A DNA stretch of 64,000 nt from Lytechinus pictus (lineage: Eukaryota): positions 19,656,001-19,720,000 of the forward strand of contig NC_087245.1 of assembly GCF_037042905.1 (NCBI RefSeq). The letters run 5' to 3'. This document shows positions 295 through 62,327 of this stretch, in pieces. The position numbers and the translations under genes are program-made. Within the stretch, counting starts at the first letter, position 1. Every line of letters begins with the position of its first letter. Below the pieces are notes generated by a model that was not told the DNA's origin, did no database searches, and was given only the letters and a program-made list of their open reading frames with translations.

Positions 295-471
295 CGACTG
301 CCTAATCTTTGCAATGACTTCATCTCCCTTCTTGGCAGCTGTGGTGTAGAGTTCTGTGATGTAGCGTTTCTCTTCCTCATGCTGCTGTAGTTTGATCTGA
401 GCTTCTGAAGTATGTGAGGGTGCTGGTTGAATTTGGTATGAGGCAATCGCTTCATCCATGGTCTTGTTGAC
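295..471 (-). CDS. CCDC141: Exon VNKTMDEAI...AKIRQS, 177 nt (last exon visible; the gene continues beyond the window)
   Basis: Acceptor tttcag. The donor TCG|gtcagt is the best candidate but cannot be checked against a next exon. Confidence 0.82.
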
Positions 472-6400: not shown

Positions 6401-9400
6401 TCTCACCTTGGTGACCTCAGTGTCAATGTCACGGAGATGCTGGTACTGATCCAGTTTTCTTGACCTCTCCAGCCAAAGGTCATCAAGGAGACGTCTCTTG
6501 TCCTGGATATCTTCCATAGCTTTCTCCACACCTTGGCAAGAGACCATGGTGGCATGGCGCGAGTCATCACCGGCTTTACTTCCAAGGTCATGGAGGCGGT
6601 CTAAAAGGTCACGACCTTTCGTCATGACCTGCATAGAGCCTTCTAACATGTCTGCATATAGAAGAAATTGAGGAACATACATGTATAAGCATTAGAGATC
6701 AATAATATCTATATAATGTTAATGGTTTATTGTTAATCCTTCATTTCTATTGAGAATCTGGTTTATTAGTGAAAATAAAAAATAAATAAAATTTTAAAAA
6801 GAAAATGGCTTTTTCAATGAATGAAGCATAAAAAAAGTTGATGTTCAAGATCTGATGGAGCCTATGCTGGAATAAAAACTTAAAATTAGAAACTATGAGA
6901 CTTTTTACTCCTTTAAAAATACTCCTTTAGAAATAGTCTGTTTACTTCTGACATGGATTTAAAGCATCGTCATCTACTACGAACCCTGTATAATTCAACC
7001 AAATCAATTCATATGAACCTTCAGAAGTGTTTCCACAGATATTCTTGTACTCCCAACTTATTTGTAGATCTATTATTAGCATACCTTTCTTGATCTGTCT
7101 TGTTCTCTGTTGCTGTCTCTCTACATCTCTGGGATCTGATGGTAGTGACATGGTCCGGCATTCTCTGATCCCATCAGCAAGATTATCATTGTACTGGGAA
7201 TAAGAATAAGATATAAATAAGACATGGAAGTGATGAAAAACTATGTATCGAAAATAGTAGCTTTAAAGTTTGCACTCATCATGGTGTCACAATACCTATA
7301 TGATGAATGCCTCAAACCAAATATTTTAATGAATGGATGGCATGTTTCTTAATATAATTAATTCATTTATTCATTAATTACATAATTTTTCTATTCATTA
7401 CTTTATTCATACATTTATTTTTGGTTTTGAATATTCAGTGATTAAATATAGCTTCATTTGCAAATTAATTCATGCATCAATTCAATTATTCAAATATTTA
7501 TTTACTCATGTTTAAAATTATTAATCAATTTAAAAATAACAATTTATGTGTTCACACAGTAATCTACATATATTTATCCACCTATTAAATTACTCTTAAT
7601 ATTTTCTGCAATATTCCCTCACAACCTGCAAAAGCTATATTTATCAATTACCATCTGCAGAAGTGTGTACTTTACCACTGCAATATATGAAATCTTTATT
7701 ACTCAAATAGAATATGTTTATTTAATCATGTCTTCCAATCCTTCAAAACATAACAAGAACTTGTTTAAAGCCTGGCTCATACCTTTGTGTTTTGGGCTGC
7801 GTATTGCCGCGTTAACCGAAACAAGTAGAATGCCTCTGGCGTTCTCACCTGCATCAAGCGATTCAATATAGCAGCAGTGCTGACTTTGAAAACTACTATA
7901 ACTTGCACAAGATGTTCAGTGATACTTGGTTACTCTTATGTACACGTTTTATGAACTAGACCAATACACTTACAGAGATATGATGGTAATTCAACAAATA
8001 CCCCCAACATGGCCAAGGTTCATTGACCTTACATGACCTTTGACCTTGAACATGTGACCTAAAACTCGCACAGGATGTTCAGTGATACTTGATTACTCTT
8101 ATGTCCAAGTTTCATGAGTCAGATCCATAAACTTTCAAAGTTATGATGGTAATTCAACAGATACCCCCATTATGGCCAAAGTTCATTGACCTTTGACCTT
8201 GGTCATGTGACCTGAAATGTGCACAGGATTTTCAGTAATACTTGCTTACTATCATGTCCAAGTTTCATGAATCAGATCCATAAACTTTCAAAGTTATGAT
8301 GGTAATTCAACATATACCCCCAATTCGGCTAAAGTTCATTGACCCGAAATGACCTTTGACCTTGGTCATGTGACGTGAAACTCGTGCAGGATGTTTAGTG
8401 ATACTTGATTAACCTTATGTCCAAGTTTCATGAACTAGGTCCATATATTTTCTAAGTAATGATGACATTTCAAAAACTTAACCTTAGGTTAAGATTTTGA
8501 TGTTGATTCCCCCAACATGGTCCAAGTTCATTGACCCTAAATGACCTTTGACCTTGGTCATGTGACATGAAACTCAGGCAGGATGTTCAGTAATACTTGA
8601 TTAACCTTATGGCCAAGTTTCATGAACTAGGTCCATATACTTTTTAAGTTATGTTGTCAATTCAAAAACTTAACCTTCGGTTAAGATTTGGTGTTGATGC
8701 CGCTGCCGCCGTCGGAAAAGCGGCGCCTATAGTCTCACTCTGCTATGCAGGTGAGACAAAAATGAATACACAGCCCAATGCAGCATGCTATGCAGCAAAA
8801 TATTCAGATGCAATCACACTTTTGCCCAACAGCTCGTTGGAGCTCGCACAGAGTTACACGCAGTAAAGTGAGGTGATGCAAGCTACAGCAAGGTATTTTT
8901 AGGTATATGGAGCACTAACACTGCATTAATGCATGCGTATGCTGCTCGCTGTTGCTCGTTCTTGCCCATCCTTACTTGCTTTTGTTTGTTTGTTGCCACT
9001 CGTCTTCGCTCGTATGAATTTTCATTGCATTCCGTTGCGGATGTCAGAAAAAAATTCAAATTGCTGAGCTAGAACGCAAGGCCTCTGCGTTAGTCTACAT
9101 AATGATCTCGTATTAGCTTGTTCATTTCGTTGTGTTGCATTTGACTGCATTTGTCTGCATTGAGGCATTCTGCAGCTGAACGCAAGCCCAAAACACAGAG
9201 ACGTACATGTAAGTCAGGCTTGAGGGAGAAATTTTGACCAACCTGTTTGGCACCCCGGTAGAAATCTACAGCCTGATCTAGCAGCTTCTGTCTTGTTTCC
9301 ATCTGTCTGGTAAGGTCCTTCCAGGCTTGTCCAAGGCTCTTGGCCATAGCTGCATAAACATCTCCATAGAACTGTTGTGTGGAGACTTGGTTGTCAGCCT

Positions 9401-12400
9401 GGGTTAGGAGACTACCAATCTGGTCTTGTTTGGCCTGCAATAAGTAGAATACACATTCAATGTATAGGATATGTATTAAAGTTATTGTTGTAATCAATGT
9501 ATGTATTCAAGCCCAAAACGGGCTGCCATGAAAATATAATCAAGAAAAGAAACATAAATCTTATTTGTATCTCTCTGGTGCCACACAAAAATACTGATAT
9601 TGCAGCTCTTGAATAAAATATCCTAACATCTATTTTCCTGGCAAATCAATTTTAACTTTAATAAAATTCAATTATACATATAGTACTACTCTACAGAAAT
9701 ATCTTTTATAAATGGTGGCAGCGGTGGGATTTTCAATACAAGAAACCTCAATTTTGCATGATACTTCTAAGTCCTGCATTTTGTTTTCCATCAATAAAGT
9801 CCAGTCTAAAAAGTAAAGTGTCCACTTTGCTATTAAACGCGTGACATAGGCCTGAGCTCAACTTTGAATAAATGGGTACTTAGAAGAATGGAGATCAACT
9901 TGTGTATGAAATTTACCATTATGTGCAACATCTGACAAGGCATATTCCAGGGAATGAAAGCTTTCCAAAGTCAAATGAGGGGTGAAATTGTATTCAATGA
10001 CTGGGATAATGAGTTGGAACTCATCAACCTCAAGGATATGTGCACTACATAATTGATTATTATGCCATGCAATCATTAAAACTTTAAGAACAAAAGAAAA
10101 TTACCCCCCCCAAAAAAAAATTAAATTAAACATATACAATGAAGACAAATAATTATACATGACTGTGATCACCTAATTATTTTTATTTTATTTTCCTTTT
10201 TACATTTATTCATCACACTTTAATACTGCTACCTAAGCTAATTAGGGATAAGATATTGTCTGCTCGTGTATGCTTTGCTATGATGAGCAACAGTTATATT
10301 TTTCCATCCTCCCACACATAAATATCCTAGTTTTCTGGCTTGTTAGCTGTCTGTGATGGATCAGAATCCTAGGCTAATATTCTCCCTGACACATTCCAGA
10401 AAGTTTTGGTCTGAAACCCTGGAACATGGAATGTCCCATTACTGATGAGGTCACTTCTCAATTTAGACTCCCAATCCAGGCTTTTGGATGCTCATCAAAA
10501 TGTCATCTTCTTGAACTCTAAAGGGATTTTCAGTAATCGCCTTTTCAAATCATTACAGTTTTCACATTCAATTACTATTTATCCTCTAAGAGTATAGAGA
10601 TGAGACATGAGCCTGTTTCATGTTCTAGTATCATAATATAATTACGACCTGGGGCCAGTTTCATAAAGGACTTGCAACTGTTGTAACTTTGCCATTATGG
10701 CAACTACCATGGTAACCTTGATTCTGATTGGCTGCTGAGCCCTGTTACCACGGTAGTTGCCATTATGTCAAAGTTACAACGGTTGCAAGTCTTTTATGAA
10801 ACGGGGCCCCAGAAATCACATCAAATTATTTCTTTTAAAAAATACCGACATTTTGAAAAGTAAAAATGTGGTCCCCTAGGATAAATTCTAATAATAGCTA
10901 GTAACAGATATACATGACAGAACCTGGTGCCAATTTTTTGTTTATTTATCCACTTATCTCTTCATTATTCTATTCATATTTTGAAAAGCTATCCTGATAT
11001 AAAAATAGGAGTTTTAATTTAGGCATTTGCAGAAGAACAATCAGTTGAGGAAGTGAAATGTTGTTTCATCTGAATTCATAAAACCAGACATCATTAATAT
11101 TAAGTATATAATCTACCAATATATGCATATGAAATGTCATATATTTTCATTGTGGGCATGATATAAAAATATTCATCTAACTCTCAATTTTTTTTCATAT
11201 CATTTTCCTAAACAATACATGTAAGACTAAACCTAACTATCACTTTGTTTTACAATAAAGATTTTTTTTCTTTTTCAAAGCAAATTCATTTAACACACAA
11301 GACATCATAATTGAACTATGCTAGAAACTTTGAATTTGACCTACATTTAGCCCTAATTTCTCCAAATAACATTTTCCAAATAATTTTCTTTCAATCAATT
11401 CAATGATTATATAATCTATTTTTGAAACAACATAAATTTTCAAATTTCATCAAACAGATTTTTTTAATAGCAAATACATCTTTTCTTAACCTCAATGCCA
11501 TGTCAACACCGTACTGCCTCCAAAAATACCATGCACACACATTGCATAGATTCCTGGCCCATCACTTAATGTATGACATGGGCCAGTTGTTATCTTTGGA
11601 GCACTCGTTTAAAGGAGATAGTCTAAGTCTACATCCATGGAAGTTGTTGTGTTCAATACTGAATTGCACAGTCTAATACAATGTTTGTCAAATATTTCAG
11701 GGTTTTTTTTTTTATTATCTGGGAATTCATATTTTGTTTAAAGGAATGCCTTAACATGCTCCATGCAAAAAAAGGGCATGGAAAGATTTAGGCCTTTTTT
11801 TTCATACAGAATTACTTATTTTTCGTATCACTAAAAATCATTTTTATTTAAATGATAATTCATTATTTGTAGGTAAAACATTAAATAATTTATTGTACTT
11901 AATAGAAACACATATTTTTCATTCAATATATTTAACATCGTTCACAAATATATAAAGAAATGCAAGAATGGGAATGTTCTTAAAACTTTTTATAAAATAA
12001 CTCATTGCTTATCTTGGTTAATATTCTAGAATTACATTTATCTCTGATTATTTTCTTAAAGTCAATCCTGATCCTGAATGAATTTTAAAATTGTAGGATC
12101 ACTGCACAGACCATTCTGCAATATGTGATCTAAGCATATTTTATTCTAATAAGTATATTCAATTAAAGAAAATGACTAAGCATGCCACATATTGCCAAAA
12201 TTTGGGCTTCATACACAAAAGCCTACCATATAAAATGTACATCTTTCCAAAAAATGTGCAGTTATTTCTTCTTGTTTAATGACAAGCAGACCTGTCACTG
12301 AACAGCTTACAGAGAACTCTCTATTTGTATTCATTTTGACAAGTGTCCTTTTCCCTGTTCATATTTCAAAGAAAATATAAACTACCCTAGTTGTCACCTA

Positions 12401-15400
12401 AGATGCATGACATCTGACCTCTAAATCTAGATAGATTTACAAGAGAAAACTGTTTTTGCTTGAACTTTGACTATCAAGGGCTGTATAGATAATGCACCAT
12501 TTGAGGTCTAATGCAATTTGATTAGATGCTGTCCTATATATTCCCAAGCATAAATACCAGTTGTGGTAATGATCTCAAAATGAGTTCAATCAGAATCCAA
12601 TGAAATTACCACCAAAGTGTTTGTATGTATAAAAAAAAAAAAATATGTGCCAAATGGCTCTGAAAGAAAATGCGTAATTGCTGAGAAATGAACAAAATAA
12701 GCACGAATTCCATCAAATGTCGGGTATTTTTTTAAACGATATTAATACACTGTCCAACATATGGTTTTCTGTGTTGGCGATCATCAGAATTATCCATTTT
12801 GAGCTGAGATTTCATGATTTTACAAAGATAAGTTTACATTAATGTACCAGATCTAGGTGTATGATAGTATTTTGACAATTAATCTTGATTTAAAAGATTT
12901 TGTCATGAAATATTTGCTTGCTGCAACCACTGTCTTTTACCTTGAACATCAAGAATATCGTTAGATATCAAACATTTTCTTATGAATCACCTTGAGGTAG
13001 TTTTAATGCAATTAATGCACCAAATCTCTATAATTCACTTTTACCACTGCAGTTGAAATTTTAATGCAACATTTGACATAGATATGACAGCTTTTTAACT
13101 AGGTTTCAATTATTCATTGACTATAAAGAGGGCAGGAAGATATTCAAATTAAGACCTTTTTGGACTCACTGGTTTGATCTTCATCTTTAAAGTTCAACAG
13201 GCTCAATTTACTCTAAATAGGCTGACAAAACTCAATGAACTTAGCAGACTGTGATGGCAGATGTAGGAATCAACTTTGGCCTAATGTTAAACTGTTCTCC
13301 AGTATTCAATTAGAATTGGGACTGTTTAGGATAACACATTTACCATGTGACCAAATCATTTCAAGGTCCCCACACTGAGGTAAATATTTATCTTTAGAAT
13401 AGGTGCTCAGCATTCAGAACCACAAGATAATAAAATATACTTGATAGTTGCTTGACTAGCAATCAGTCTATCAGACTTGAAATTTGAAATCTGAGAATTG
13501 AATTTCAAATTCATCTTAATATAAACCTATTTTAGTACTAGTATTAGATACTGTGACATGCTATGATACAACTTACAATAGTAATGAGGTAGCAAAAGAA
13601 AGTAAAAATGTATAAACAATTATAAAAGTACAAATATCACAATATATATCCATGCTAACTATATCAGTTTGCCTTGCATTGCAGCTATAGCCTAACAACA
13701 GGAGGTAAAAAACAGATTTTCTTTCTTTTAAGCTCTAACATTTTAAAGTTGGATTTGGATTTTCACAAACCTTTCACTAATATGTTGTTATTTCCTATGT
13801 TTCATAACAACTGTACACCTGGGAGATCTTTCCCTTTAATAATCATGGTATAAAGAATTTATACATAATACTGTAGATGAACTTAGCAAATGTGTATAAT
13901 ATTTGCCTTTTATCTTTGAAAAGGGTAGACATGATCAAATGTTTATTGCATTTTTTTAATATGAAAACGAAATATTCATTTCAGTGCTCATCCTTAGCCC
14001 TGTTTTTGTCTTAACTTTAGTAAATTTTGTTTTATGTGATTGTTGGTCACAGTAATTCAACCTACTAATATAAATATACATTTGTAAAATGAAATCACAG
14101 TTACTTCGGCTTCTTATCAAAACTGACAATGTAAGAAGATATGCTGAAGCCCAAGGCAGATTTTTGAGTGGGATACAAATCACTACATAATAGAAGGATG
14201 TTGGTGTTTGACTTGTACACTAAATATTTCAACAAGACTTGATATGTGTTATCTTTGATTTAAAGAAAATGTCAAGTTTTGGTGGCAAAATTGATATATT
14301 AGGATTAAACTTAATAACTTCTTATTGACCAACTTGTATTCATAAAAACCTGCACAGAAATTATGGATCTCCCCTTTTCTCTTAGTGTAAATGTGAATAT
14401 TTTATATTTAAACTTCATTTCTTGTACATGCACACTATCAGTATCCATTTCAGTGAAATTATCCTGATCATGAAATACTGTGCTCAAAATAATACCATCA
14501 TGAGTACAATATCTTTATCTCATTAGTGATACAATCATCACCAACATATTTTGAAAATAAATGTTGGACAAATTCTAGGTAATGGTTGAGTTTTTATGCA
14601 AAAAAATAATGTTAAAAACAAAAACAAAATGTTAATTCAGGCACTACATCATGCCAAAAAATGAGATAGCTCACATAATAGTTTGTGAAGTGTTAAAGAT
14701 TTGTAAAGAAGAGATGTTAACAAACTTACCACAAGATTTTTAATGACTTCGTCATGTTGTGTTTTGAGATTCTGGGCTTCCTCCAAGTTTGTCCCAATCT
14801 CTGTCATTCTTGGTATCATGTCTTCTACTCTTACTTGGATCCATTCCGCCGACTAAGTGAGGAGAAAAACAAAATGTGAAGGTTAATCACTCTTCTATTT
14901 GCAGTAATTTTGGTACATTTTAATTCAATTTTTATTGTTATATCAAAAGTGACTTGGCACCCACAATTTAACATCTCTATTTTCATTGTTTTGGAGGGGT
15001 GATCCAGCATTTAATTTCAATTTCATGAAATGGCAAAAAATGATCAGTGGATTGAAAAAAGGATAAAATCATTAGCAAACAATTTCATTGAAAATTGTGA
15101 CTTATGTTTTATTATATTGAACATATATTTTAACACAATTAATAAGCCAATCTTTATCATATGAAGCATCATCATTTCATACACAATTTCATAACCAAAA
15201 TCATGTTTTTCATCATCATTATCACCATCCTCCATACATTACCTCAACCATTCATAATCATATGAAATAATGTTTCATTTCAGCACATAATCATATTTTT
15301 TAAAGATAATATTAAATTCACATCAGACCAAAAACCAAAACAATATGCAAGTAAATTGTTGTTGTTTCCCGACACCCCTGTAAAAATCATTTATAATGAA

Positions 15401-24400: not shown

Positions 24401-26440
24401 GTTGGACGTAATTTTTTGATCAACATTCCCATAACTTTTTATTTGATGGGATATGTGTGTTTTATCAAAGTTTGATTGTGGTATAGTGGCCAAATTATGT
24501 GCATATACATGTACAAGTAAATGCCTATGAATTCTGGTAGGCAAGACATGCACAGACCACAAACTTTCCATCTTCAAATCTGAGAAAGAAATAATGGAAA
24601 ATAATTGCAAGTCCAAATAGTGTAAGATTGATAATTTCAGACACTTTATACACAAACATTAGATGCAGCCTTCCTTATCAAAACCCCCAGAGTGTGTTTA
24701 AATTAAATAGGGCACAGACAATATGCCCATTCCGACTTTTCAATCTTAAAATAACTTGCCTGCCATTTTTCCTGAATATGTTCTTGATGTAGGCCTAAAT
24801 ATTTCTGTAATATTTTGTTCACAGTTAATTTTCAGAATGTAAGAAATGATATCCTATCCTTGTTTTATCTGAAATCGTTTTGTAAAAGCATGCATGTAGG
24901 ACTCCCATCAAGGAGTTCAAGCATCATTGCTTGCTATCCCATCAAGGATGCTATCTTTCTTTATATGCAAAGAAGAAAGCATGATATCTGGATGTGCACA
25001 CTAACATGGATGGACAGAGTTTGAACATGTGAACCTTGGCGAAGAAACAACATTCTCCCGGAGTCAAAACAACATTCATCCTATCCCCTAATACCACAAT
25101 GATCCCGATCGCCACCATCTTCATGTGATGTAAACACTGTATGAATTTCTACTGTCTGCAAAGCTTCTATGTGGTCCACTGGCATGAAGTAGGGCCTAGA
25201 TGTTGTTCAAAACTTTATATAACATTTGCAGTGTGAGAAACCCATCACTTTCAGACATGTTGTGTTAAGATATCAAGCTGACCTCCAAGATGTGAAAATG
25301 ATACAATAACATCAACCATAACTTGTTGAACATAATCATATTTCACCATTATATACATGTACACTTCCAATATGCATGTACCCTAACACAAGTGATCAGG
25401 CATCAGGTCTAATGATTTAACAATGACAGAAGATAGGGAAATAAAGATTTGAAAGCCAGAATTGGGAATGGTAATTAAATTGCCTAATTCAGTTGCAAAT
25501 TTCCTATTCAAACTCCAAACCGCTGAAGATTCAAGTAGGCCAACACTAAGTTTTCTTTATCTCTAAATTGTACTACAAGTAGGTCTGCAACAACTAGTGA
25601 CTCGCTACAACTAGGTAATTCATGACAGCAAAAAAGATCAACATCAAGTGGTCAAGCAGAAACAAGAGTAAACAAAGCAAAACTCTCCTTCATATTCATA
25701 ATTCAAGGAGTTCATAAAGAATAAACAGAACCTCAGGTTTTTAAACAAGGGTGAGAAGGGAGCAGTCTCAATACTGGAGGCTACCTGGGGTTATTAGAGG
25801 TCAATGACCAGGAATGACCCGCATACCTCGTCTGAAGAAAGGTAACTTATTAACCACTCTGCACTACATTCAGTGAAATCCATTCAACCAGTCAATTTCA
25901 TAGATAATATATTGAAGCTATCATTTTAATCTTCTACCACACCTGTATGTAAATGTTGCCAATTTGATAAGGATATTTACAAACTGTATCAACAGGTGAC
26001 AAGATCAATGTTCACATGAACAGGGAAGAAGCATTGGAATGTTTACAAATGAAATATTTGTCTGAATAGTGATGGATAGGAGATAGAGCAAGATAAGTTG
26101 TACATTTCAAATATGATATCTTTTCTGAATTCCAATGTTTTTTGCAATGAGAGATTCCTGCCAATGTAGAAAAACACAAATATATGCCTCCCTTGCTTGG
26201 GTCACCAGCATGGAATCAAATCTCAAAAAGGTTATCAATATGTATCACATATGAAAAATGAGGAGCAGACACTGATGTCATGACATACTGTTTTGTAGCT
26301 CTCCTAATTCCTGAAACAAAGGAGGTAAATAGAATACTTACTTGTAACACAGCTAAAACAATCCTTGCTTTTCCACTCTGCACTGCAACAGTGCTGATTG
26401 TGGTAGTCGCTGTTGGTTTCTTTCCTTGTTGCACTGACAT
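295..26440 (-). CDS. CCDC141: CCDC141-like spectrin-repeat region: own ATG exon plus 14 exons, 841 codons, continuing past the left edge of the window
   Basis: The spliced N-terminus TTTISTVAVQSGKARIVLAVLQSAEWIQVRVEDMIPRMTEIG...VYAAMAKSLGQAW resembles recalled human CCDC141 ([31 protein letters not shown]...VYDAMAETLGEAW). All junctions are GT-AG and in phase. Confidence 0.85.
992..1180 (-). CDS. CCDC141: Exon RVTTEIQMRL...DFYKKVNK, 189 nt
   Basis: Acceptor tgacag, donor AAG|gtaatg. Confidence 0.88.
1805..1921 (-). CDS. CCDC141: Exon TIEFVINMEG...SFQETVT, 117 nt
   Basis: Acceptor tttcag, donor ACG|gtgagt. Confidence 0.85.
2391..2570 (-). CDS. CCDC141: Exon LVNDTELVTK...WEHFVRDARK, 180 nt
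   Basis: Acceptor cgccag, donor AAG|gtaaat, open frame. Confidence 0.86.
2920..3093 (-). CDS. CCDC141: Exon LGNAMENME...FKNELHK, 174 nt
   Basis: Acceptor cactag, donor AAA|gtaatc, open frame. Confidence 0.85.
3387..3566 (-). CDS. CCDC141: Exon EKSTQVDNVM...FHKVTKQ, 180 nt
   Basis: Acceptor ttacag, donor CAG|gtatgt. Confidence 0.88.
3768..3980 (-). CDS. CCDC141: Exon AKCVDLQNQ...KWLVNVG...HEKLLTEVR, 213 nt
   Basis: Acceptor ccctag, donor AGG|gtatgt. Confidence 0.88.
4290..4502 (-). CDS. CCDC141: Exon AKTYLSRLG...NMAEIQ, 213 nt
   Basis: Polypyrimidine tract with a gaag acceptor, donor CAG|gtaatt. Confidence 0.87.
4963..5154 (-). CDS. CCDC141: Spectrin repeat exon (DVQNSVANLL...FYRNAEL), 192 nt
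   Basis: Acceptor gcttag, donor CTG|gtaagt. Confidence 0.9.
5769..5888 (-). CDS. CCDC141: Spectrin repeat exon (ISNWFRTQGE...HHHAFEVAAG), 120 nt
   Basis: Acceptor ctcttag, donor GGG|gtaaga. Confidence 0.88.
6407..6651 (-). CDS. CCDC141: Exon DMLEGSMQVM...IQDKRRLLD...TEVTK, 245 nt
   Basis: Acceptor atgcag, donor AAG|gtgaga, phase 1 to 0. Confidence 0.9.
7085..7193 (-). CDS. CCDC141: Exon YNDNLADGIRECR...RQIKK, 109 nt
   Basis: Acceptor tcccag, donor AAG|gtatgc, phase 0 to 1. Confidence 0.85.
7768..9221. mobile_element. MITE-like non-autonomous DNA transposon, interrupted by a nested insertion
   Basis: Imperfect TIRs aagcctg...tgtgttttgggc / gcccaaaacaca...caggctt. Confidence 0.6.
7819..8762. 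mobile_element. Helentron/HINE-like non-autonomous element carrying an internal tandem array (about 5 units of 150-190 bp)
   Basis: Subterminal inverted repeat tctcacctgcat (7843) / atgcaggtgaga (8745), terminal hairpin gtctcac...gtgagac next to an A run, and units containing tgacctttgaccttggtcatgtgac. The family assignment is inferred from structure. Confidence 0.7.
9243..9434 (-). CDS. CCDC141: Spectrin repeat exon (AKQDQIGSLL...FYRGAKQ), 192 nt
   Basis: Acceptor ttgcag, donor CAG|gttggt. Confidence 0.9.
10649..10812. mobile_element. Palindromic MITE of about 165 bp, copy 1
   Basis: Long inverted arms ggggccagtttcataaag... / ...ttttatgaaacggggcccc. A near-identical copy lies at 38499-38663. 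Confidence 0.85.
12547..12945. mobile_element. Degraded non-autonomous DNA transposon
   Basis: Weak inverted termini (taaataccagttgtgg / caaccactgtcttttacctt). Confidence 0.4.
14730..14852 (-). CDS. CCDC141: Spectrin repeat exon (SAEWIQVRVEDMIPRMTEIGTNLEEAQNLKTQHDEVIKNLV), 123 nt
   Basis: Acceptor ctcacttag, donor GTG|gtaagt, phase 0 to 0. Not in the ORF track. Confidence 0.9.
16591..16780. mobile_element. MITE of about 190 bp
   Basis: TIRs atgacatttgctcctgcgacaattgctcca / tggagcaattgtcgctagagcaaatttcat. Confidence 0.8.
18922..19492. mobile_element. MITE of about 570 bp
   Basis: TIRs cattgacgagtggataccatgcgcgaccaa / ttggtcgcgcatggtatccactcatcaatg, with CCCGGG-like ends. Confidence 0.85.
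26342..26440 (-). CDS. CCDC141: CCDC141-type first coding exon (MSVQQGKKPTATTTISTVAVQSGKARIVLAVLQ), 99 nt coding
   Basis: ATG in AAA-ATG context, with an in-frame TAA 30 nt upstream and no polypyrimidine acceptor in between. Donor CAA|gtaagt, phase 0. Confidence 0.88.
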
Positions 26441-27030
26441 TTTCGGTTTCTTTTTTTCGCTTCGTTTCGTTTAAAAAATATTTCTACAAACTATTTTCTA
26501 CGAACTTTTGTCTCTTTTTTTGAGGAACCGGTAGAACTAATTGTAACTTGTGTTTGGTCCCTTCGTTGATCTCTCGACACAAAAATAAAACAAATAAACA
26601 AACATTGAAATAAGTTGCTTCAGATTTTTTTCCTTCAAACCTTCATGGGAAGGTTTACCGCGACGCCATAGGAGTTTCTATGGTGTTTGATTGGAGTCGC
26701 GAGCGCACAACGGGGCTGGTAATGACGTGCACGCTTTTAGTGCCCCGCGCCAGCCAAACGCACCGACTGACTTGAGATCTCGACTCCCTACTGAGAGGCA
26801 GAGAGGAGAGACTCAGAGTACCAGCACGATGGTCTTTCCTTCCCTCAATCCTCTCTTCTTTCTATCCTCTCCTCTGTCTATCTCTTTCCTTTGATCCCCT
26901 GTGGGAGTGCACGGGGTACTGGGAGAGCGAGAACATCTATATTAGGAGAGGCACTGCTTTCCTGCTAGCCCATTGGTAGAGCACTGAAGTGTTCGGTTAT
27001 CCTCCACTTGTATTAGTCTCAATGCGCAGA
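26441..27030 (-). promoter_or_regulatory. Candidate 5' UTR and internal promoter for the CCDC141-type first exon
   Basis: Locally GC- and CpG-rich tract (about 26660-26830) directly upstream of an ATG exon that lacks a splice acceptor. No repeat termini seen. Confidence 0.55.
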
Positions 27031-32787: not shown

Positions 32788-32979
32788 CTCCTTTACTTTG
32801 TCCTCAAAATCCTTCATTCGCCTCAATGCCTCATCTTCTGGTCTGATGCCATAGCGATTAGGTGATGGAGGAGGCATCCTATTGAGACTTGAACGGCTTC
32901 CATTCAAGCTGCCGTGACTTCCAGTCAATCTTCCATTCATCCTACCATTGAGACTTGGTGGAGGAGCTGACATCACAGA
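32788..32979 (-). CDS. Linker/bridge exon (SVMSAPPPSLNGRMNG...EDEALRRMKDFEDKVKE), 192 nt
   Basis: Acceptor cttccag, consensus donor GAG|gtaagt, open frame, phase 0 to 0. Confidence 0.8.
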
Positions 32980-35900: not shown

Positions 35901-38900
35901 CTTGTTTAGCAAGCACAGAACAGCAACTCCATCTTGCATAAGCCAATAACATTAATCTTTCCAGAATACCCATGTCACAGAACCTGTGTCACAAATCAAA
36001 TCTATGTTTTATTCAAGCAATGGAAATTGAAAGAAGAGTACAAATGTCTATTCTTACCCTTGCGGTAGTTTCAAATTTACTGTGTTCATCCTTGAGAGAA
36101 GCAGCCTCATCTGCTGATCTTCCAACCTCAATATGCTGTAGGAGCATGTTATCTAGCAGCTCAAGAAGCCAAGCAATAGCCTGATGAAAAGGTGGGAAAG
36201 AGAAAAATAAGAGAAGAATAACAGGAGAAATTTGCATATTTCAACAATATGGCTTACCATAAACTATTACTCATTATGTTATACTTTGTGGGTAATCTTC
36301 ACTGGTGAGATGAATGTTCAGTTTATAACAAAAAAATTATAGAACATACTCAATCGCTTGGTCTTGCAACCAGTGAAGTACATAGCTCCAAAAAATAGGA
36401 GTGTATTGGCACATTTTATTCACTTCCACAAATCTAAATGGTTTATTTCAATGGATTTATTGCAAAAATAACAACTACAAAATGAAAAATACATGTACAA
36501 ACTCTCAAACTTTTAAGGGACCAATAAAAAAAACATAAGGTTTGGAACAAGTATACAACCTCAGCAGAATAAAATAATCAATCTTTATCTTGCCATAACA
36601 AAACATGTATACAAAGCATCAAGTGTGTAGATAAAATGTAATTTGTAAAGGTATATTAATGTAAAGTATTTGTAATATGTATCATCCTGAGTAAGATTCC
36701 ACCCATGGTCCAACTAAAAAGCACAAAGAGGTCATCAACGTTTTACCTGCCAGACCTTGTTTGGTGCAAGATTTTTTTTCAGAAGTGTAATTTATATCTC
36801 TAATATCTAATAATCTATGATGAAGGTTTATTTTTTAAGTCAATTCTTTCAAAGTAGGTATTCAGACTCTTTCATTCCATTCCAAAGTCATGTTTTGTAG
36901 GTAACACTGTACCTTTCAATCAGGAGTAAGCTGACAACGAACTTAACTTCTATTGAAATTCACCTTGGGTGTTTCTGGATAGACTTCCCTTCTATTCATA
37001 GCACCTTGGGAACTTCTGAATAGACTTCCTGTCTATTCATACTTTCATGCCCTTATTGTTATATTCATCACTCTTATCACGTATCAATCTTTAATTATAT
37101 GCAAAGCTGCACAAGCTATTAAAATTGAAAGGAATGAATAGAAGAACTTAATTATTTTCTCCAATAATCAGTCAAGTCATGAACATAATGTATGCTCGTA
37201 ATGAATAGTAATAATTTGTAGAAAACTAGTGTAAAATCAGGATAAAATGAATACTTCTTTTCCATACCTGTTCAGCATCTCTCTCGCAGCTCTTGAGCTG
37301 CAACAACTGCTGAAGCTTGAGCTTCCTGACCTCAGCCAGGTCACGACACCGTGCCCTTCGTCCCTCAAGCTCTGCCAAGATGCGCTCGACATGGGCGATG
37401 TGCTTCTCATAGTTTGGTGTGATGTCTTTACCAAAGGCATTCTTGATAGGTAGGCTCATCATCTCCAAAATACTCTTCCCCTCACGAATGGCTCGATCTG
37501 TGGTGTACACTGTTAAGATAATCAGAAAAGGGTGATTACATATCGAGTCTTTAAGAAGAGGTGTTATATTTAGGTTCACATTACCATTAAAATGTTATGC
37601 AATCTTTTCTTTAAAAGATGTTCATGTAAATGATAATGTTTATATAATCTTTAAATCTTATGTCACACATACTTAATGCACCAGCTGATGTGGGGGATGT
37701 GGGAGGCCTCTCAACAGAGTTCACAATTCTTTTAAGCAATTTCCATTTGTTGGCTACGGCAAAATCTCATTTTGTCCATGTTTGTGTATGTTTTCTACCT
37801 TTATATTTTTAAATAATTTTCCTGGAAATAAGGTACCTAAATATAACAAAATTTTCAACAGAGAGGGGATGCTTACTTGAGTTGTCAAAGTTGTCCAGGA
37901 GAAGTCTAAGAGCTTCCTCAGTGCTCTCTACAGAATCTACTTCAACTTCTCCTGTGCATAGTTCTAGTAGGTCTGCTAGTTTGGAAAATGCCTGTATGGA
38001 AAGAGATACAATAAATAATAGACTTGTTTATGATAAGTGAATAGGATAAAGATATATCTCAACAAAATAGTTTTCTTTACAAGAAGGGATTTGATTTTAT
38101 GCAAAAATTTATCTAAAACTTTCCACCCAATAACTGACATGTGGATAAAAAACACCACAATTCCACATTTGAAATCAGGTTACTTTGAACAATTCAATCA
38201 TAAAAAGAATATATATAAGAAGTACATTAAATAATTACATGGGGAACTAAAAATAACAAATATTAAATAAAATCAAAATAAAATCTGAATAATACTATGT
38301 TTGGAATACTTTCCCCTGAATCTTTGCCAAAGATTTGGCAACATTACATTTAATTTGTGAGAAATAGGAAAAGATATAAATATATACATCAAATTTGCAT
38401 AACGTAATATTATTAACAAAAATCGATTTTGTTGGCAAAAAATATAGTGACATGCTTTGCATGTGATCGTGTCAGTGCAAAATTTTGCATTAATCAGACC
38501 AGGGGCCCGTTTCATAAAGAACTTGCAACTGTTGTAACTTTTCCATTATGGCAACTACCAAGGTAACCTTGATTTTGATTGGCTGCTGAGCCCTGTTGCC
38601 ATGGTAGTTGCCATTGTGGCAAAGTTACAACAGTTGTTAGTCCTGTATGAAACGGGCCCCTGGAGAGATATGAAGGGGATCAAATTCACCCCTCCTTTAA
38701 AAACTAGGGTCTCATAACATGAATCATAACGATTGATCAAAGGGCTGATTTTCATGATTGATTTTTGAGAAATCAATCATACAGATTAACTGTACAATCA
38801 ATCACTAAGCAGTTTTACCGGTGCCCTGGTTTGAAAAGCCCTACTAAAATAGGATTAAAACATTTAAAAGTAACTTACTTCTTGTGATAATCGGTGGAAT

Positions 38901-41626
38901 CTGACGGAACCAATAACGAGGTTCCGCCGCCTCTCCAGACGAGAAGCAAAGCTACGGCATACTGTATCTAGGTAGTCCTTCTGAGCACCGATGTCACCCG
39001 CATGGGGATGACCACTCTTAATGATGGAGTCCGCTACATGACGAAGCTCGGCATAATTGCCATAAATATCCTGGTACATGGAATAGAGATAATATTATAA
39101 AAAAATATCTCTTCATACTGCATTCATAAGCACTTGTAATATGAAGTTAAAACCCCTAGTAGCTGGAATGAATCCATGTTCCACACATAAAGAGCACAAT
39201 ATCCACTTTCTTGTGATCATTCCAGCCAGACACTATTTTACAAATACGAGGAGCAAATTTTATTTAGTCACAAATGTGAAGTAGAGTTTTGCCAAAGGAC
39301 ATTATTGCCAAGTGATATTTGAATCCCCAACTTTTAAAATTAACAGTCAAGTAACTAAACCTCCACACCATACACCCATGGTATGTCCCCATCGATTTTT
39401 TTAAAGCAGAAGTTTTTTTTTTTCAATTACTGATAGATTCTTCCAGGCAGATCTAGGTGGCATGAGTCATCACATGATGATAATGAAGTGACATAATTGT
39501 GGGGGCATAGTGGTCTAGTGGTTATGACTCTCGTCTATCAATCTGAGGGACGTGGGTTCGATTCCAAGCCATGTCATGTTTTCCTTCAGCAATGAATTTA
39601 CCCACATTGTGCTGCACTCAACCCAAGTGAGGTGAATGGGTACCCGGTAAGAAAAATTTCATTAAAATCCCTGAAAGCCAAGGCAGTCCAGCTGAAGCCG
39701 GGGTAATAATACTAGCAGGGCCCGCTGGGAGAACAATTTACGAAACTGAAGTGGCTACCCTGGTAAATGTGCCATTTTTACGAGTAATATTACAATTTTT
39801 CTGGCTGCAACTGTGCAACTATTTGTACAATAGCTTCTTTAATAAATAATCATATTGATTGACATTCTAGTGTGTAGTCTGGAGTGATAGCATGGCATGT
39901 CAGATCAAAGAAGAAACATTTTACTTTCCATTCGAACCAGTTTCTGCTGCACAAATTTTAGGATAGGGAACTTTTAAATCACATGAAATGGAATAAAATC
40001 AATCATTCATTGAATAAAAACACATGTTCATATCTCACAATAGGTGAGGGTGTTCATTGATTTATGCTTTGAAGTATATTCACAAATCAAGGTGAAAAGT
40101 AAAAAAGATACAGGTTTTGACTGTTTGATGGAGTGACTTTTTTTAAGGGGGTGTGGTTTAATGGCTTAATACAGGGGTGGTATTCACATGAACCCACCCT
40201 ATATATTGTGTAACTGCTCTCTGAAAATAAATCACAAAACTGAACCCTAACTTACGGTGCACTTGAGTTCTAGTTTCTCATGTTCCCTCCTGAGTTTCTC
40301 AGCAGTCTTGTAGTCATTGCCAATGTCTATGTGTGACGATAAGAGCTTCTCTCCTGGTCCAACTATCCAGTCAATTACCTGAAAATTTCAACAACAACAA
40401 AACAATAAAAGTGGAGTCAAGACACCAAAAATGAAAAGAAAATAGGAGATGGAGAAGGGGAAAAAAGAAAAAGAAATTGTAGGAGGCAAATGAGATGAGG
40501 TGAAGGAGAAGAAGGGAGAAAGGGGAAAAAAATGAGGAAGACAAGGACAACGAAGATAAAGAAAAAGACAGCGAAGAAGACGACAAACAAGACAAAGTGT
40601 ATGATGAAAAATAAGAAGAATAATAAGAAAAGGAGAGACTAGACAAGGGAGCAGAAAAAATAAGGGAGGAAAGGATATGAGAACAGTTAAGAGGAGGCGA
40701 TGTAGAGTAGAAAGAATTTTTTTCTTAATTTATTTATTTATTTACCACTCATACATGTAGTACAAGTCATTTCAAATCATTTTAATTCCAAATAGGAAAC
40801 AGAACAATTGAAGACATATTTGGAAAATTTCATGAAGGAATCACTATGCAGATTATTGATTTTTGTCAATCGCAGTATATATTCTTCCTTTTTTTACCTT
40901 TTTGATACCACTCTCCATATCACCTAGCTGCATGTGGACACCTAGCTCTCGATCTCTCTCTGCTAGGTACATCCTGAGTTGATTCTGTTTTTGTTGCAGA
41001 GCATCGAGTCTTTGATCCACCTCTCGGTGCATCAGCAGTTGGTCCTCTGTAGCGAAGCCCTGGTCTCCGCCTTGCCTCTGGAAACCCGAGTCGGTCTCCA
41101 CACGTCGTGAAAGGGAATGGCCTGTGGAATAAAATTGGAAGAGTATTCTTCTCGTTATCTTGTTTAGTTCACTAGATACCAAAATGATCACTCATATATC
41201 ATACACTGACCATTGATCATAACCTATTTTACCAATGAATATCAAACTTCATCCTTGCCATACTACCTTTGGGCAACATGTCCATATTATAACCATCATC
41301 ATTGTCATTGTTGTCATTACCGCCAGCATTTTCATCATCATTCACATTAATATCATATTCATTTCTAACATCTTCCTCCTCATCATCATTGGCTCATCGC
41401 CATTATCTTTTTCATCATTTCCATCACCAACACTTACATTTAATCATCACCGTCCCAAATTATCACCACTACCACCATCATTACCATAATTCTCATCATC
41501 GTCATCACCACCACCACCACCACCACAATCACCACCACCATCATCATCATCATCATCTTCTTCTTCATCATCATTATCATCATCATCATCATCATCATCA
41601 CCACCACCACCACCACCACCACCACC

Positions 41627-41660
<34 letters not shown>

Positions 41661-44600
41661 CCACCACCACCACCACCACCACCACCACCACCATCATCAT
41701 TACCCACAACTCACCAAGTTGTAGCACACTGCTCGGTTGGTCAATGACAACCTCCCTCAATCGTTTCTGACGACGTAGCTGGTCTTCTGGAGTCAGCCTC
41801 TCGTCTTGTCTTGACAACAGCTCCTCATGAGCTTGCTCGAGACGTTTCTCCGTCAGACTGGAATCTTTCAAGAACTTCTCAAAGTCCTATAAGGACAAGT
41901 TATGACATAGAAAAAATGTAAGACATCATATTGGTCAACGTCCTTAAGATATGGCTAACGCCAAAATTGACTTTGAACAGCGAGGTGGTATGAATCAGCC
42001 GGACAACTTTGGCCACTACAAAACAAATGCTGCAGATTTATATTTTACATTTCCGGGACCGTGGTTTACACCAATGATGCAGTGTGCATAATACATAATC
42101 CTCTAGGTGTGGGGAGGTGTGTTTTTCTGAAATCAGAAAGACCAACTGAAATTTTAGAAGCATTTGTAATAAAGCCATTATTTTGGCATCAGATATTAAT
42201 GCCAACATATATAACAAATTCATTTTTAATATACAATGTATATCATGAATTTTCCCATTCAAATACAGACAAATCAATTTCATTTCACTTTACACAATAG
42301 TTAATTACTGAGCTTTGGAGCATAAAAATGCTCCCTAGGGCTACTGGAGAACTAAGTCATAAAGTAGCCAACAGAGTGACCTGATATATGAAAATACCTA
42401 CTCAAAATACCTGATACTTTATCAACTGTTCGGCACCCTTTTTCAATTTTTAGTTTATAACTTTTTTAATGTTTGCATGTGAAGTGGTGAATAATTATTC
42501 CAGACATTTAAGAAGCTTTGTGATATGAATGAGACTTGTTTGATTGTCAGGTCACTGTTATTAACCTAACACAATCAAACAAAGAAAGATTAAAAATTAG
42601 TCTATATTTGTTGATTAATGATAGAACCATAAAAGTGTAAACACTGATTATTTTGATGTTTTTTTCACAGAGGAATGAATGTATGTGTATCCCATTACCA
42701 TTCAAAATTATTTCTAAACAATCAATATTACTCCAAAATAATTTAAAACTTAATTTGGTGTATGAATTTACACCCTTACCTGAAATATAAACATTACCTT
42801 TGATTTCAATCTTGCTTAATTACTTTTCTTGTTTGTTATATGATCTCACTTCAGCACAAACATGCTTCCACATAAATGTCTACACCACATTTTTTTTTAT
42901 TATTTCTATTGGCAGGCACACAAAGAAAACTGGATGATGTAAACATGACCTCAGATATATTTAACACCGCAGACTTACTAGTCTCTTCTACAGCCAATTC
43001 ATATAATGGTATATTCAATACTTCAGACTTACCAGTCTATTCTGCAGCCATTCTTGATGATGGTAGTCAAGTGCGCCCCCAAAATCTTCTGTCAGCTGAC
43101 TTGTGTCGAGGTACTTTGTAAGCTTGGAAGGTGATGATAGGAATATTGTCTGTGAAGAGGGAGTGAATGGGAAAGTGTTAAAAACAAGTAAATTATAAAA
43201 CAAACAGAATATATAGTTCATCCAAATCAATTTAATTGGTTCCTAATTCCTGCATGTAAGCATTTTAATCAAGAACGCGTAAAGTCAATTCAGATATTTT
43301 GCATCAGATACTGTGCATGATTCCGGTAACATTTTCATTTCCAAAATGTAAATAATATTTCTTCCAACCGTACAAATGTCACTCTATAGAGGGTTGGGGT
43401 TATGGATGTAAGTAACAAAACCCTTATGCACTTGGCCTTCAATATTTTTTTAGAAGTGACTAATGGAAGAATAGACTCTAATCGGTTGCATCACATGGTT
43501 TAGTGGTTTTACTCTTAATCAAAGAGTCTGTGGTTCAAAACCTTGTCCAGGTATCTTCAGCAAGGAATTTATCCATATTGTGCTGCACTCAACACAGGTG
43601 AGGTGGCAGGAATTTATTCCATGAAATGTAGGACTCTGCTATAGCTATGGTAATTATACTACATTATTGTATAGCACTTAAAGACTTATAACGGAAGTGA
43701 TAGAAAAACAAACTGTATAAACATCAGTATTATGAGTATCTGTACTAGGAGTAATACTGGATGGTTTGAAGTTTGGGAGATGCTATTCAAGTGTAACAGT
43801 CATCTCGCTTTGAGCAAAACTGATATTTACCTCAAACGATTGTGACTTGTCTTTCTTGAGACCAAGGCTGGATCCCTGACGAGCCCTCGAGGCATCATTC
43901 TTGAGAATGTAGATAACACTGATGCTTCCTGCTAGTGTCTCCTGTATCGAGAGAGGCAAAAAAAATTAAAAAATATTGTCACAGAAAATACAATGTAACA
44001 TACAGTTCCATAAAAATCTTGGGTTTTAATCATTATTAATGTCACAAGATTGTGACATTTCATTATTTCACTATTTGATAGATCTGGTAAATCTTTCATC
44101 GATAGCTTTCTGTAATATTTGGGAGTTTTATAAGACCCAACTGAATGTCAAGGTACATGTATACACCCACTGAGCTGCAAGCAAATTGTAATGAGTAAAT
44201 GCATCAAGTACAAATACATGATATAAAGTATATATCATCAAAATGTGGAGAAAAAAAATTCAGACAATGGAATTAACCTAACTCAAGTGCAATCCATCTT
44301 TTAAAAAAAAGATAAATCTTCCAAAAACAAATTGAAAATATAAATGTCAATCTGGCTGAAAAGAGACTAAAATGACCTGTACCATTTGTTGTTTTATGAC
44401 AGCTCATGGTTTAGGTTTATGATAGTGTGTCATCCCTGCAGACCTTATCATCACATCATTACATTGTTCTTGTATCCCCCTTAGAGCCCTTCTCAATTGT
44501 CTTAATACAAACTTTCAGCTTTTCCCACATCTTAAAGGATGATCTTGAAACTGATATCTTTTGTGTTCAATCACTTCTCAAACAGGTGTGACTGCCTCAC

Positions 44601-61096: not shown

Positions 61097-62327
61097 CACT
61101 GGAGCTGAAAATTGAGAGAGGAAATATCAAATCAATTCATGCAAATCAGAATGACATCTTCAGAGATACAACTCACATCTGTGTACATGTTCATATTTCT
61201 AACTCTGTTGCTACACCATAATTTTAATATCGCAGGTCAGAAAAATAAGAACGAGCAAAGTAAAAATGATATGTAGGCCTACATCATTCAAGATGACTTA
61301 TCCTATTTTTATTCATATACAGGTACCTATAACTGGACTGGGGGGTTTCAAGTGATGGAAAATAAAATATTTCATGTATGCCCACATCACTTCTGTTCAT
61401 GCAAAATCAAATTATATCATTATGATCCCAGTGGTAAATTACAGAGGCTCTTGTGCAAACTATAAGGGATTTTTCTCGCATTCTTTGCACTTTGGTCGCA
61501 GAACGGTATTTTCTCATATATGTTTTTTTTAAGTAAAAGGATCCATAATAAATTGCTATTTTAATTTGCAATGAACATTAAAGAATTTATCCCCTTTAGG
61601 GTAGTCTGCAATACTTTGGTGACAGGCTCAATTGGCATCAATTTAGTAGTGTTACAAATAATATGATCTAGACTACTGACATTTCAAAATGAATAGTATT
61701 TTGAGAGATGGAAATACTTTTTCTGAAACATTCTGATAGTGAGAACTTGAAATTGCCATAATATACATGTATGTTTGGTCCATCATACTCTTTAGATCCA
61801 TAGACAACCAAATGACAATTAAAAAGCTATCACAGCAATTCGGCCTCAAAACATTACTACTAAACATTCATCATCAATATAAATTATAGTCCTAACCAAT
61901 TGGACATGTCTGCGAACTACTGCAAAGCAAAGAGAATGACATGATCGGCTCGTTTAAAAATCTGTTTCTGAAATGTCAAGAAGATGAACGAGGATTGAAG
62001 AATTCTATATCTAGACATCCAGTGCATCCCAGGCCTGATCCAAGTTTAGCTTGAGGTATATACACCGTACTCATCAGTGTTAGCATTCCATCCAGTAGGC
62101 AGACGTAGTTGGTATGCTAATTGAGTTGGGGTGTTATACAGAATATCAAGTAGCCAACAAAATCTTGGTCTATGGCTGTATATCATGGAATGTAATAAAA
62201 ACTATCAAATCAAAATTGTACTATACATTGATATCAATAGGCAAAATGAAATAAATCAGCAAAATTCAACAATAAGTAAAGGTCAGCTTCAATAACTTTC
62301 ATGCTGTCAATCAAATATTTAAAGCAA

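What the first reader, a model, noticed from the sequence alone, without database searches (positions are those of the whole stretch)
26342..27030. Internal alternative first exon carrying the vertebrate CCDC141 N-terminal motif
Seen in the sequence: an ATG exon with an upstream in-frame TAA, no acceptor, a CpG-rich upstream tract and a phase-0 donor. It lies inside the ~18-kb intron of the putative long isoform. Its peptide (TTTISTVAVQSGKARIVLAVLQ) is beta-strand-like and closely resembles the recalled human CCDC141 start. Inference: the exon is mutually exclusive with the whole SESTD1 module. Vertebrate CCDC141 may therefore derive from a pre-existing internal promoter, with gene fission needing only loss of the bridging splice.
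Basis: partly seen in the sequence, partly recalled or inferred. Interest (0 to 1): 0.75.

Follow-up and report, generated by a model that had tools for sequence, protein, structure and literature searches.

The report
Ancient internal start exon of CCDC141
A short exon inside a long intron of a spectrin-repeat scaffold gene, likely of a sea urchin, encodes the same N-terminal motif that begins CCDC141-type proteins from alligator to insects and worms, and it likely acts as an ancient second start of a fused SESTD1-CCDC141 gene, one that vertebrates probably kept when the gene split in two.

Summary
The exon is real. ATG 26440, phase-0 donor after 26342, in-frame TAA 26473 and the CpG tract check out. 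Its peptide matches alligator CCDC141 residues 12-34 (14/23 identical), and a profile of relatives hits only this spot in the window. The motif is not vertebrate-specific: it sits near the N-terminus in hemichordate, amphioxus, flatworm, nematode and arthropod relatives. Two crinoid models fuse SESTD1 to CCDC141 at the same junction without the motif, and two crustaceans show motif and non-motif N-termini on that junction. Exclusivity is therefore supported across species; no RNA was laid here. The junction splits a spectrin repeat: AlphaFold predicts that the start of the shared exon is a helix after a long-form exon and a third beta-strand after the motif exon. Corrections: two acceptor-like sites lie 350-460 nt upstream; fission also needed a SESTD1 stop and poly(A) site; the promoter appears bilaterian, not only deuterostome. 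The ancestral fused 'connectitin' locus, and a match of its gene starts to KALRN promoters, are in print (PMC12198301). The exon-level mechanism and the predicted fold switch were not found in six searches. Verdict: solid, moderately interesting variant of a known kind.

The parts
26342..26440 (-). Coding part of the internal start exon (33 aa; conserved motif in 26410-26342), phase-0 donor CAA|GTAAGT
   Evidence: Sequence; BLASTP to alligator CCDC141; motif profile; tblastn of P0005, P0012, P0016, P0123
26471..26473 (-). In-frame TAA 11 codons upstream of the ATG
26441..26668 (-). Presumed 5' UTR (inferred); upstream ATGs at 26646 (3 codons) and 26605 (22 codons), plus 26669 (4 codons) at its edge
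   Evidence: extent not shown by RNA
26669..26751 (-). Promoter-like cluster in the CpG-rich tract: GC-box-like 26751, CRE-like 26728, CCAAT 26694, YY1-like 26669
   Evidence: Only place in 64 kb with 3 or more of these four kinds within 150 nt; patterns were chosen after reading the sequence, so suggestive only
26790..26898 (-). Two acceptor-like sites (exon would begin at 26898 or 26790); if used, the ATG exon would be a second exon with a long UTR
   Evidence: Crude acceptor scores 6.3 and 8.6
14730..14852 (-). Shared exon 2 (phase 0/0); its first residues are predicted helix or strand depending on the upstream exon
9243..9434 (-). Exon 3, rest of the first CCDC141-type spectrin repeat
298..7193 (-). 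Further CCDC141/zormin-type spectrin-repeat exons, collinear with relatives; the gene runs off the window
32788..32979 (-). Bridging exon of the long form; its last 17 codons would supply the first half of spectrin helix A; donor GAG|GTAAGT, phase 0
   Evidence: 8/17 identical to crinoid P0002 864-880, ending at the junction, E 0.004; donor score 7.9, the highest of the 13 scored
33756..35271 (-). Last SESTD1-side exons (35271-35080, 34661-34480, 34035-33756), phases compatible with the bridging exon
36058..61104 (-). SESTD1 module exons (SEC14/CRAL-TRIO and SESTD1-type spectrin repeats)
   Evidence: Pfam Spectrin_SESTD1 E 2e-15 on 37271-37498; tblastn of crinoid P0002 down from 52764; exon 61104-61042 shares 10 consecutive residues with the Strongylocentrotus SESTD1 row of the PMC12198301 supplement

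Best explanation
This exon encodes the conserved N-terminal motif of CCDC141/zormin-type proteins and is likely the first coding exon of a short isoform, driven by a predicted internal promoter inside a SESTD1-CCDC141(-titin) 'connectitin' locus, likely of a sea urchin. Shown: the exon, its homology, its phase-0 fit to the acceptor at 14852, and the equal fit of the SESTD1-side exon ending at 32788. Inferred: a promoter near 26.7 kb makes a transcript spliced 26342 to 14852, while the upstream SESTD1 promoter makes a long transcript spliced 32788 to 14852 that skips this exon. The junction lies inside a spectrin repeat. Predicted: the long form completes helix A of a normal three-helix repeat; in the short form the motif forms a beta-hairpin that takes the start of exon 2 as a third strand and caps the rod. 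The arrangement likely predates the protostome-deuterostome split, and vertebrates likely fixed the short start as CCDC141 once SESTD1 terminated on its own.
For: Alligator CCDC141 12-34 matches 26410-26342 and then the exons at 14852, 9434 and 6651 in order. 46 of 175 stored proteins carry the motif at 15 bits or more, 43 of the 46 within the first 70 residues (17 built the profile, near-duplicate cluster members included). Named carriers: Saccoglossus, Branchiostoma, Macrostomum, Plectus, Trichuris, Trichinella, Heterorhabditis, ticks, a mite, insects, Parasacculina. Crinoid P0002 (Anneissia) and P0145 (Antedon) carry CRAL_TRIO_2 + Spectrin_SESTD1 + CCDC141-type repeats in one model, join at the exon-2 start and lack the motif. 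Same-junction pairs: Parasacculina P0019 (motif) and P0148 (none), one 90% cluster; P0018 (motif, unnamed) and Hyalella P0027 (none), identical over the 68 residues shown downstream. Pfam Spectrin starts at profile position 2-6 in P0002, P0145, P0148, P0027 (8 in P0014) and at 8-29 in motif forms. AlphaFold: motif form P0058 has strands 9-18, 22-30, 35-43 with exon 2 from residue 31; non-motif P0014 has helix 363-382 with exon 2 from 371. Unnamed P0014 has a likely SESTD1 tail upstream (16.8 bits; best of 500 shuffles 4.3).
Against: No RNA evidence in this species for the start site or either junction. The crinoid fusions are RefSeq-type models whose read support I did not see. Saccoglossus is annotated as two consecutive separate models (SESTD1 XP_006823022.1, motif-start XP_006823021.1). 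Only 2 of the 7 long non-motif proteins have a Pfam-confirmed SESTD1 module; P0027, P0148, P0007 and P0144 have other N-termini. No single species was shown with both a SESTD1-fused and a motif form. Two Macrostomum models (P0078, P0143) hold the motif about 2000-2400 residues inside, though their upstream part shows no BLASTP match to the SESTD1 module. The two folds are of different species, neither is the window's protein, and the helix has pLDDT of only 62-71. P0014's tail score is modest: an unrelated spectrin stretch scored 9.7.
Confidence: 0.78

Rival explanations
1. SESTD1 and CCDC141 are already separate genes here: SESTD1 ends at or after the exon at 32.8 kb and this exon is simply exon 1 of the downstream gene, so the 18-kb 'intron' is intergenic.
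For: Separate consecutive models in Saccoglossus; human and Drosophila are annotated as separate genes (PMC12198301); read-through of the 32788 donor reaches a stop 40 codons later, with poly(A)-like hexamers at +66 and +236 nt (common in AT-rich DNA).
Against: The bridging exon has the best-scoring donor, the right phase, and keeps a half-helix that matches the crinoid fused protein up to the junction; two crinoid genera are modelled as fused.
Confidence: 0.12
2. The ATG exon is the second exon of the short transcript: a non-coding first exon further upstream (for example the CpG tract at 28.7-29.3 kb) splices to 26790 or 26898. The protein-level conclusion is unchanged, but the promoter lies elsewhere.
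For: Acceptor-like scores 8.6 and 6.3; the most CpG-rich 300-nt window of the 64 kb is 28801-29100.
Against: The promoter-like cluster lies downstream of both sites; the best minus-strand donor in 28600-29350 scores only 1.2; the 26790 site is a CT-rich run that may be simple sequence.
Confidence: 0.08
3. It is an internal coding cassette of the long isoform, or a chance look-alike.
For: Stop-free AGs exist just upstream of and inside the exon; two Macrostomum models carry the motif internally.
Against: Those AGs have weak pyrimidine tracts and none scores above 2; in-frame TAA at 26473; profile E 1e-11 at this one site; neither SESTD1-fused crinoid model carries the motif.
Confidence: 0.02

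Closest known systems
Vertebrate CCDC141 (CAMDI); tested with Alligator sinensis isoform X8, XP_025072315.1
   Same: N-terminal motif ending at the same residue boundary, followed by homologues of exons 2 and 3 and further spectrin repeats.
   Different: Here the start lies inside a locus whose SESTD1 exons can splice in frame to exon 2; vertebrate CCDC141 is a separate 24-exon gene (PMC12657953, passages). The Ig-domain C-terminus is outside the window.
'Connectitin' SESTD1-CCDC141-TTN / CG15822-zormin-sls (Hanashima et al. 2025, PMC12198301)
   Same: Same gene order and domains; the paper proposes one ancestral gene and shows fused cnidarian and placozoan proteins.
   Different: The paper works at domain and synteny level. 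In the parts read and the term searches it describes no alternative first exon, no SESTD1-CCDC141 fused isoform in a living bilaterian, no N-terminal motif and no split spectrin repeat.
Delta-Kalirin internal promoter of KALRN (PMC3048553)
   Same: A promoter in an intron (between exons 10 and 11) yields isoforms lacking Sec14p and the first four spectrin repeats: the same logic in the paralogous gene.
   Different: Whether that promoter is homologous in position, or encodes a similar cap, was not tested; no protein named TRIO or KALRN with the motif was seen among the hits whose names were looked up.
Canonical spectrin repeat (PF00435)
   Same: The rod of the short form matches spectrin and plectin repeats (Foldseek 3edv E 7e-05; VIA Z 18.2, rmsd 5.2, 304 aligned to 5j1i).
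   Different: The first repeat of the short form is predicted to have a three-stranded sheet in place of helix A; the fold searches barely tested residues 1-45.

Membership tests
CCDC141/zormin orthologue | N-terminal motif as in vertebrate CCDC141 | tested here: met
   14/23 identical to alligator CCDC141, E 1e-07
CCDC141/zormin orthologue | Collinear N-terminal spectrin repeats | tested here: met
   tblastn of P0123, P0005, P0012, P0016 in exon order
CCDC141/zormin orthologue | C-terminal Ig domain(s) and position upstream of titin | not testable with these tools
   Gene runs off the window; no genome is held
CCDC141/zormin orthologue | Position directly downstream of SESTD1 on the same strand | tested here: met
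Alternative first exon (internal promoter) | Start codon with upstream in-frame stop and a phase-compatible donor | tested here: met
Alternative first exon (internal promoter) | Transcription start directly upstream and junction reads to the shared exon | not tested
   No reads were laid; promoter-like motifs only
Alternative first exon (internal promoter) | A longer isoform of the same gene skips it in the same species | tested here: inconclusive
   Frame, donor and conserved half-helix fit; fused models in crinoids only
Connectitin (fused SESTD1-CCDC141-titin) | SEC14 + spectrin repeats + Ig/kinase region in one transcription unit | tested here: inconclusive
   SEC14-to-CCDC141 exons are collinear with a fused crinoid model, and frame was checked from 35271 to 14730; the titin part is outside the window
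Delta-Kalirin-type promoter (homologous position in TRIO/KALRN) | Start at the same point of the homologous spectrin repeat | not tested
   Only described in papers

The most novel reading that the evidence does not exclude
A promoter choice kept since the last common bilaterian ancestor decides the fold of one shared peptide: the start of exon 2 is spectrin helix A in the long SESTD1-linked protein and the third strand of a beta-sheet cap in the short protein. Vertebrate CCDC141 and insect zormin would be the beta-capped isoform fixed by gene fission, and the cap would be an unrecognised CCDC141-specific binding surface in the N-terminal region reported to bind nesprin-1.
Probability: 0.4. 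Interest if true: 0.7.

Novelty: new variant of a known kind. Interest (0 to 1): 0.48.

Why it matters
It gives an exon-level route by which the proposed ancestral SESTD1-CCDC141-titin gene could split: the CCDC141 start was likely already present as an internal promoter in living invertebrates, with both forms testable in an echinoderm. It also points to a small conserved, predicted beta-sheet cap at the CCDC141 N-terminus, a protein tied to cardiac mechanical adaptation and nesprin-1 binding (PMC12657953), and to a possible isoform-dependent helix/strand switch in a spectrin repeat. The broad idea is already in print, which limits the surprise.

Tried and rejected
RNA: the run search gave 21 rows and no RNA holder listed; its word shares are not used as evidence. 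No reads were laid, so start site and junctions stay open. No genome is held, so the titin part and a second locus could not be checked. Word-indexed search with exon 3 found 0 of 24 candidates (113-2000 aa only). The crinoid junction region found only 2 crinoid proteins and a spectrin among 764 candidates. The SESTD1 region found 2 partial invertebrate proteins among 7999 scored candidates and no vertebrate SESTD1, so where vertebrate SESTD1 ends relative to these exons is untested. Pfam has no family for the 33-aa exon or for exon 2 alone. PDB sequence search gave only spectrins (7 sequences); fold searches were dominated by the helical rod and say nothing on the cap. ESM Atlas: top cluster 'Coiled-coil domain-containing protein 141' for the alligator piece, possibly its own cluster. 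Earlier scan findings: three look-ups, nothing. Rejected: vertebrate-specific motif; chance look-alike; internal coding cassette. The CpG tract at 28.7-29.3 kb showed no match to stored proteins.
Full report
1. Observation. On the minus strand an ATG at 26440 opens 33 codons ending at CAA|GTAAGT after 26342, phase 0, with an in-frame TAA at 26473-26471. The upstream tract is CpG-rich: 18 CpG in 26501-26800, reached by 5 of 637 windows, median 2. The exon lies between a phase-0 donor at 32788 and a phase-0 acceptor at 14852, 17,935 nt apart. The shape alone is weak: a crude filter lists 8 ATG-plus-donor candidates in this gap, 4 without an internal stop. 'No acceptor' is overstated, since acceptor-like sites lie at 26790 (8.6) and 26898 (6.3); either would give only a longer UTR, because of the in-frame stop. 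GC-box-, CRE-, CCAAT- and YY1-like words cluster at 26751-26669, the only such cluster in 64 kb, but I chose the patterns after reading the sequence.

2. The locus. Exons upstream of 32.8 kb encode a SESTD1-type module: Pfam Spectrin_SESTD1 E 2e-15 and collinear tblastn hits of a crinoid protein from 52.8 kb down. Exon 61104-61042 shares 10 consecutive residues with the Strongylocentrotus SESTD1 row in the supplement of PMC12198301, so the source is likely a sea urchin. Exons from 14852 down encode CCDC141/zormin-type spectrin repeats. Phases of the exons 35271-35080, 34661-34480, 34035-33756, 32979-32788 and 14852-14730 allow one open frame.

3. Homology of the exon. A full HMMER search with exon 3 gave 139 proteins; I looked up names for 30 of them. 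Alligator sinensis CCDC141 X8 matches the exon at residues 12-34 (14/23 identical, 22/23 similar, E 1e-07), then the exons at 14852, 9434 and 6651. A motif profile from 17 relatives hits the window once, at 26410-26342, ending on the donor (33.2 bits, next -13). Of 175 stored proteins 46 carry the motif, 43 within the first 70 residues; 17 built the profile and near-duplicates are included. The exceptions are P0018 (position 133, after a low-complexity leader) and two Macrostomum models with about 2000-2400 upstream residues that show no BLASTP match to the SESTD1 module. Named carriers span a hemichordate, amphioxus, a flatworm, nematodes, chelicerates, a crustacean and insects. The motif is bilaterian, not vertebrate. 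No cnidarian carrier was identified.

4. Exclusivity. Crinoid models P0002 (Anneissia, XP_033111497.1) and P0145 (Antedon) carry CRAL_TRIO_2, Spectrin_SESTD1 and the CCDC141-type repeats in one chain. They reach the exon-2 residues directly from a helix-like stretch and lack the motif. The last 17 codons of the window's bridging exon match that stretch (8/17, E 0.004) up to the junction, and its donor is the best of the 13 scored. Parasacculina P0019/P0148 and P0018/Hyalella P0027 show motif and non-motif N-termini on the same junction; Trichinella models also differ there. The non-motif N-termini of P0027, P0148, P0007 and P0144 are not SESTD1, so this acceptor seems to take several upstream exons in arthropods. 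Unnamed P0014, closest to arthropod sequences, has a likely SESTD1 tail before its linker (16.8 bits; best of 500 shuffles 4.3; an unrelated spectrin stretch 9.7). Against: Saccoglossus has SESTD1 and the motif-start protein as separate consecutive models; the crinoid fusions are predicted models; no single species was shown with both a SESTD1-fused and a motif form; and no reads were laid for this species.

5. Mechanism. Shown: the exon, its homology and the phase fit of both upstream exons. Inferred: an internal promoter near 26.7 kb gives the short protein and the SESTD1 promoter gives the long one. The junction lies inside a spectrin repeat: the Pfam match begins at profile position 2-6 in P0002, P0145, P0148 and P0027 (8 in P0014), but at 8-29 in motif forms, including 2 versus 16 for the Parasacculina pair and 6 versus 29 for P0027/P0018. 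AlphaFold on the motif form P0058 (17-sequence alignment, mean pLDDT 84.6) gives strands 9-18 and 22-30 from the motif and 35-43 from exon 2, then spectrin helices. On non-motif P0014 (13 sequences, mean pLDDT 52, long disordered linker) the same exon-2 start lies in helix 363-382 at pLDDT 62-71. This predicts an exon-dependent helix/strand switch, with the caveats that the proteins are of different species, neither is the window's own, and the helix is of modest confidence. Fold searches returned spectrin and plectin rods and barely tested the cap.

6. Fission. The data fit a CCDC141 start that existed as an internal promoter before vertebrates, and likely before the protostome-deuterostome split. 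'Only loss of the bridging splice' is too little: SESTD1 must also stop and be polyadenylated. In the window, read-through of the 32788 donor reaches a stop 40 codons later with poly(A)-like hexamers nearby, so such an end may pre-exist, but these hexamers are common in AT-rich DNA. No vertebrate SESTD1 was retrieved.

7. What is known. [quoted passage not shown] PMC3048553 (passages) describes the Delta-Kalirin promoter between exons 10 and 11, which removes Sec14p and four repeats. PMC12657953 (passages) reports that the CCDC141 N-terminal spectrin repeats bind nesprin-1. Six full-text searches found no description of this exon, its motif, the shared junction or the predicted switch; subscription papers such as Burkart 2007 on sallimus/zormin (seen only in a reference list) are outside the library and could cover the Drosophila start.

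8. Verdict. It works like the Delta-Kalirin internal promoter; it belongs to the CCDC141/zormin orthologues on the features testable here. New variant of a known kind, interest 0.48; confidence in the two-isoform mechanism 0.78.

Noticed in passing
window 28750-29300: The most CpG-rich tract of the window lies in the same long intron. It holds an ATG at 29089 on the minus strand with a weak phase-0 donor (CGG|GTAGAC, score 1.2) at 28969, no match to stored proteins and no long repeat copy in the window; it may be an enhancer or a further start. My notebook gives this ATG as 29087; 29089 is right.
   Followed up: partly
window 34480 and 33756 (minus strand donors): Both late SESTD1-side donors are weak (3.9 and 3.4), and read-through meets a stop at once (34480) or after five codons (33756), which would give SESTD1-only proteins; no AATAAA/ATTAAA in the next 600 nt.
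   Followed up: partly
P0007, P0144, P0027, P0148, P0033: Arthropod and Trichinella models put still other, non-SESTD1 N-termini on the same exon-2 junction, several ending in a helix-like stretch; the acceptor may be a hub for several promoters.
   Followed up: partly
window 41506-41693: A 63-copy trinucleotide (CAC-type) microsatellite just after the SESTD1 exon at 41886-41713 gives long low-complexity ORFs on both strands; probably intronic.
   Followed up: no
window 7896-8698: Tandem 163-192-nt units, probably a dispersed repeat array, in the intron after exon 3.
   Followed up: no
window 59800-60300 and 56100-56500: Further CpG-rich tracts inside the SESTD1 region, possibly other promoters or repeats.
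   Followed up: no
P0002, P0145: The fused crinoid proteins are named 'triple functional domain protein-like', and motif-start proteins 'titin-like', 'unc-89' or 'MYLK', which hides this family in annotations.
   Followed up: yes
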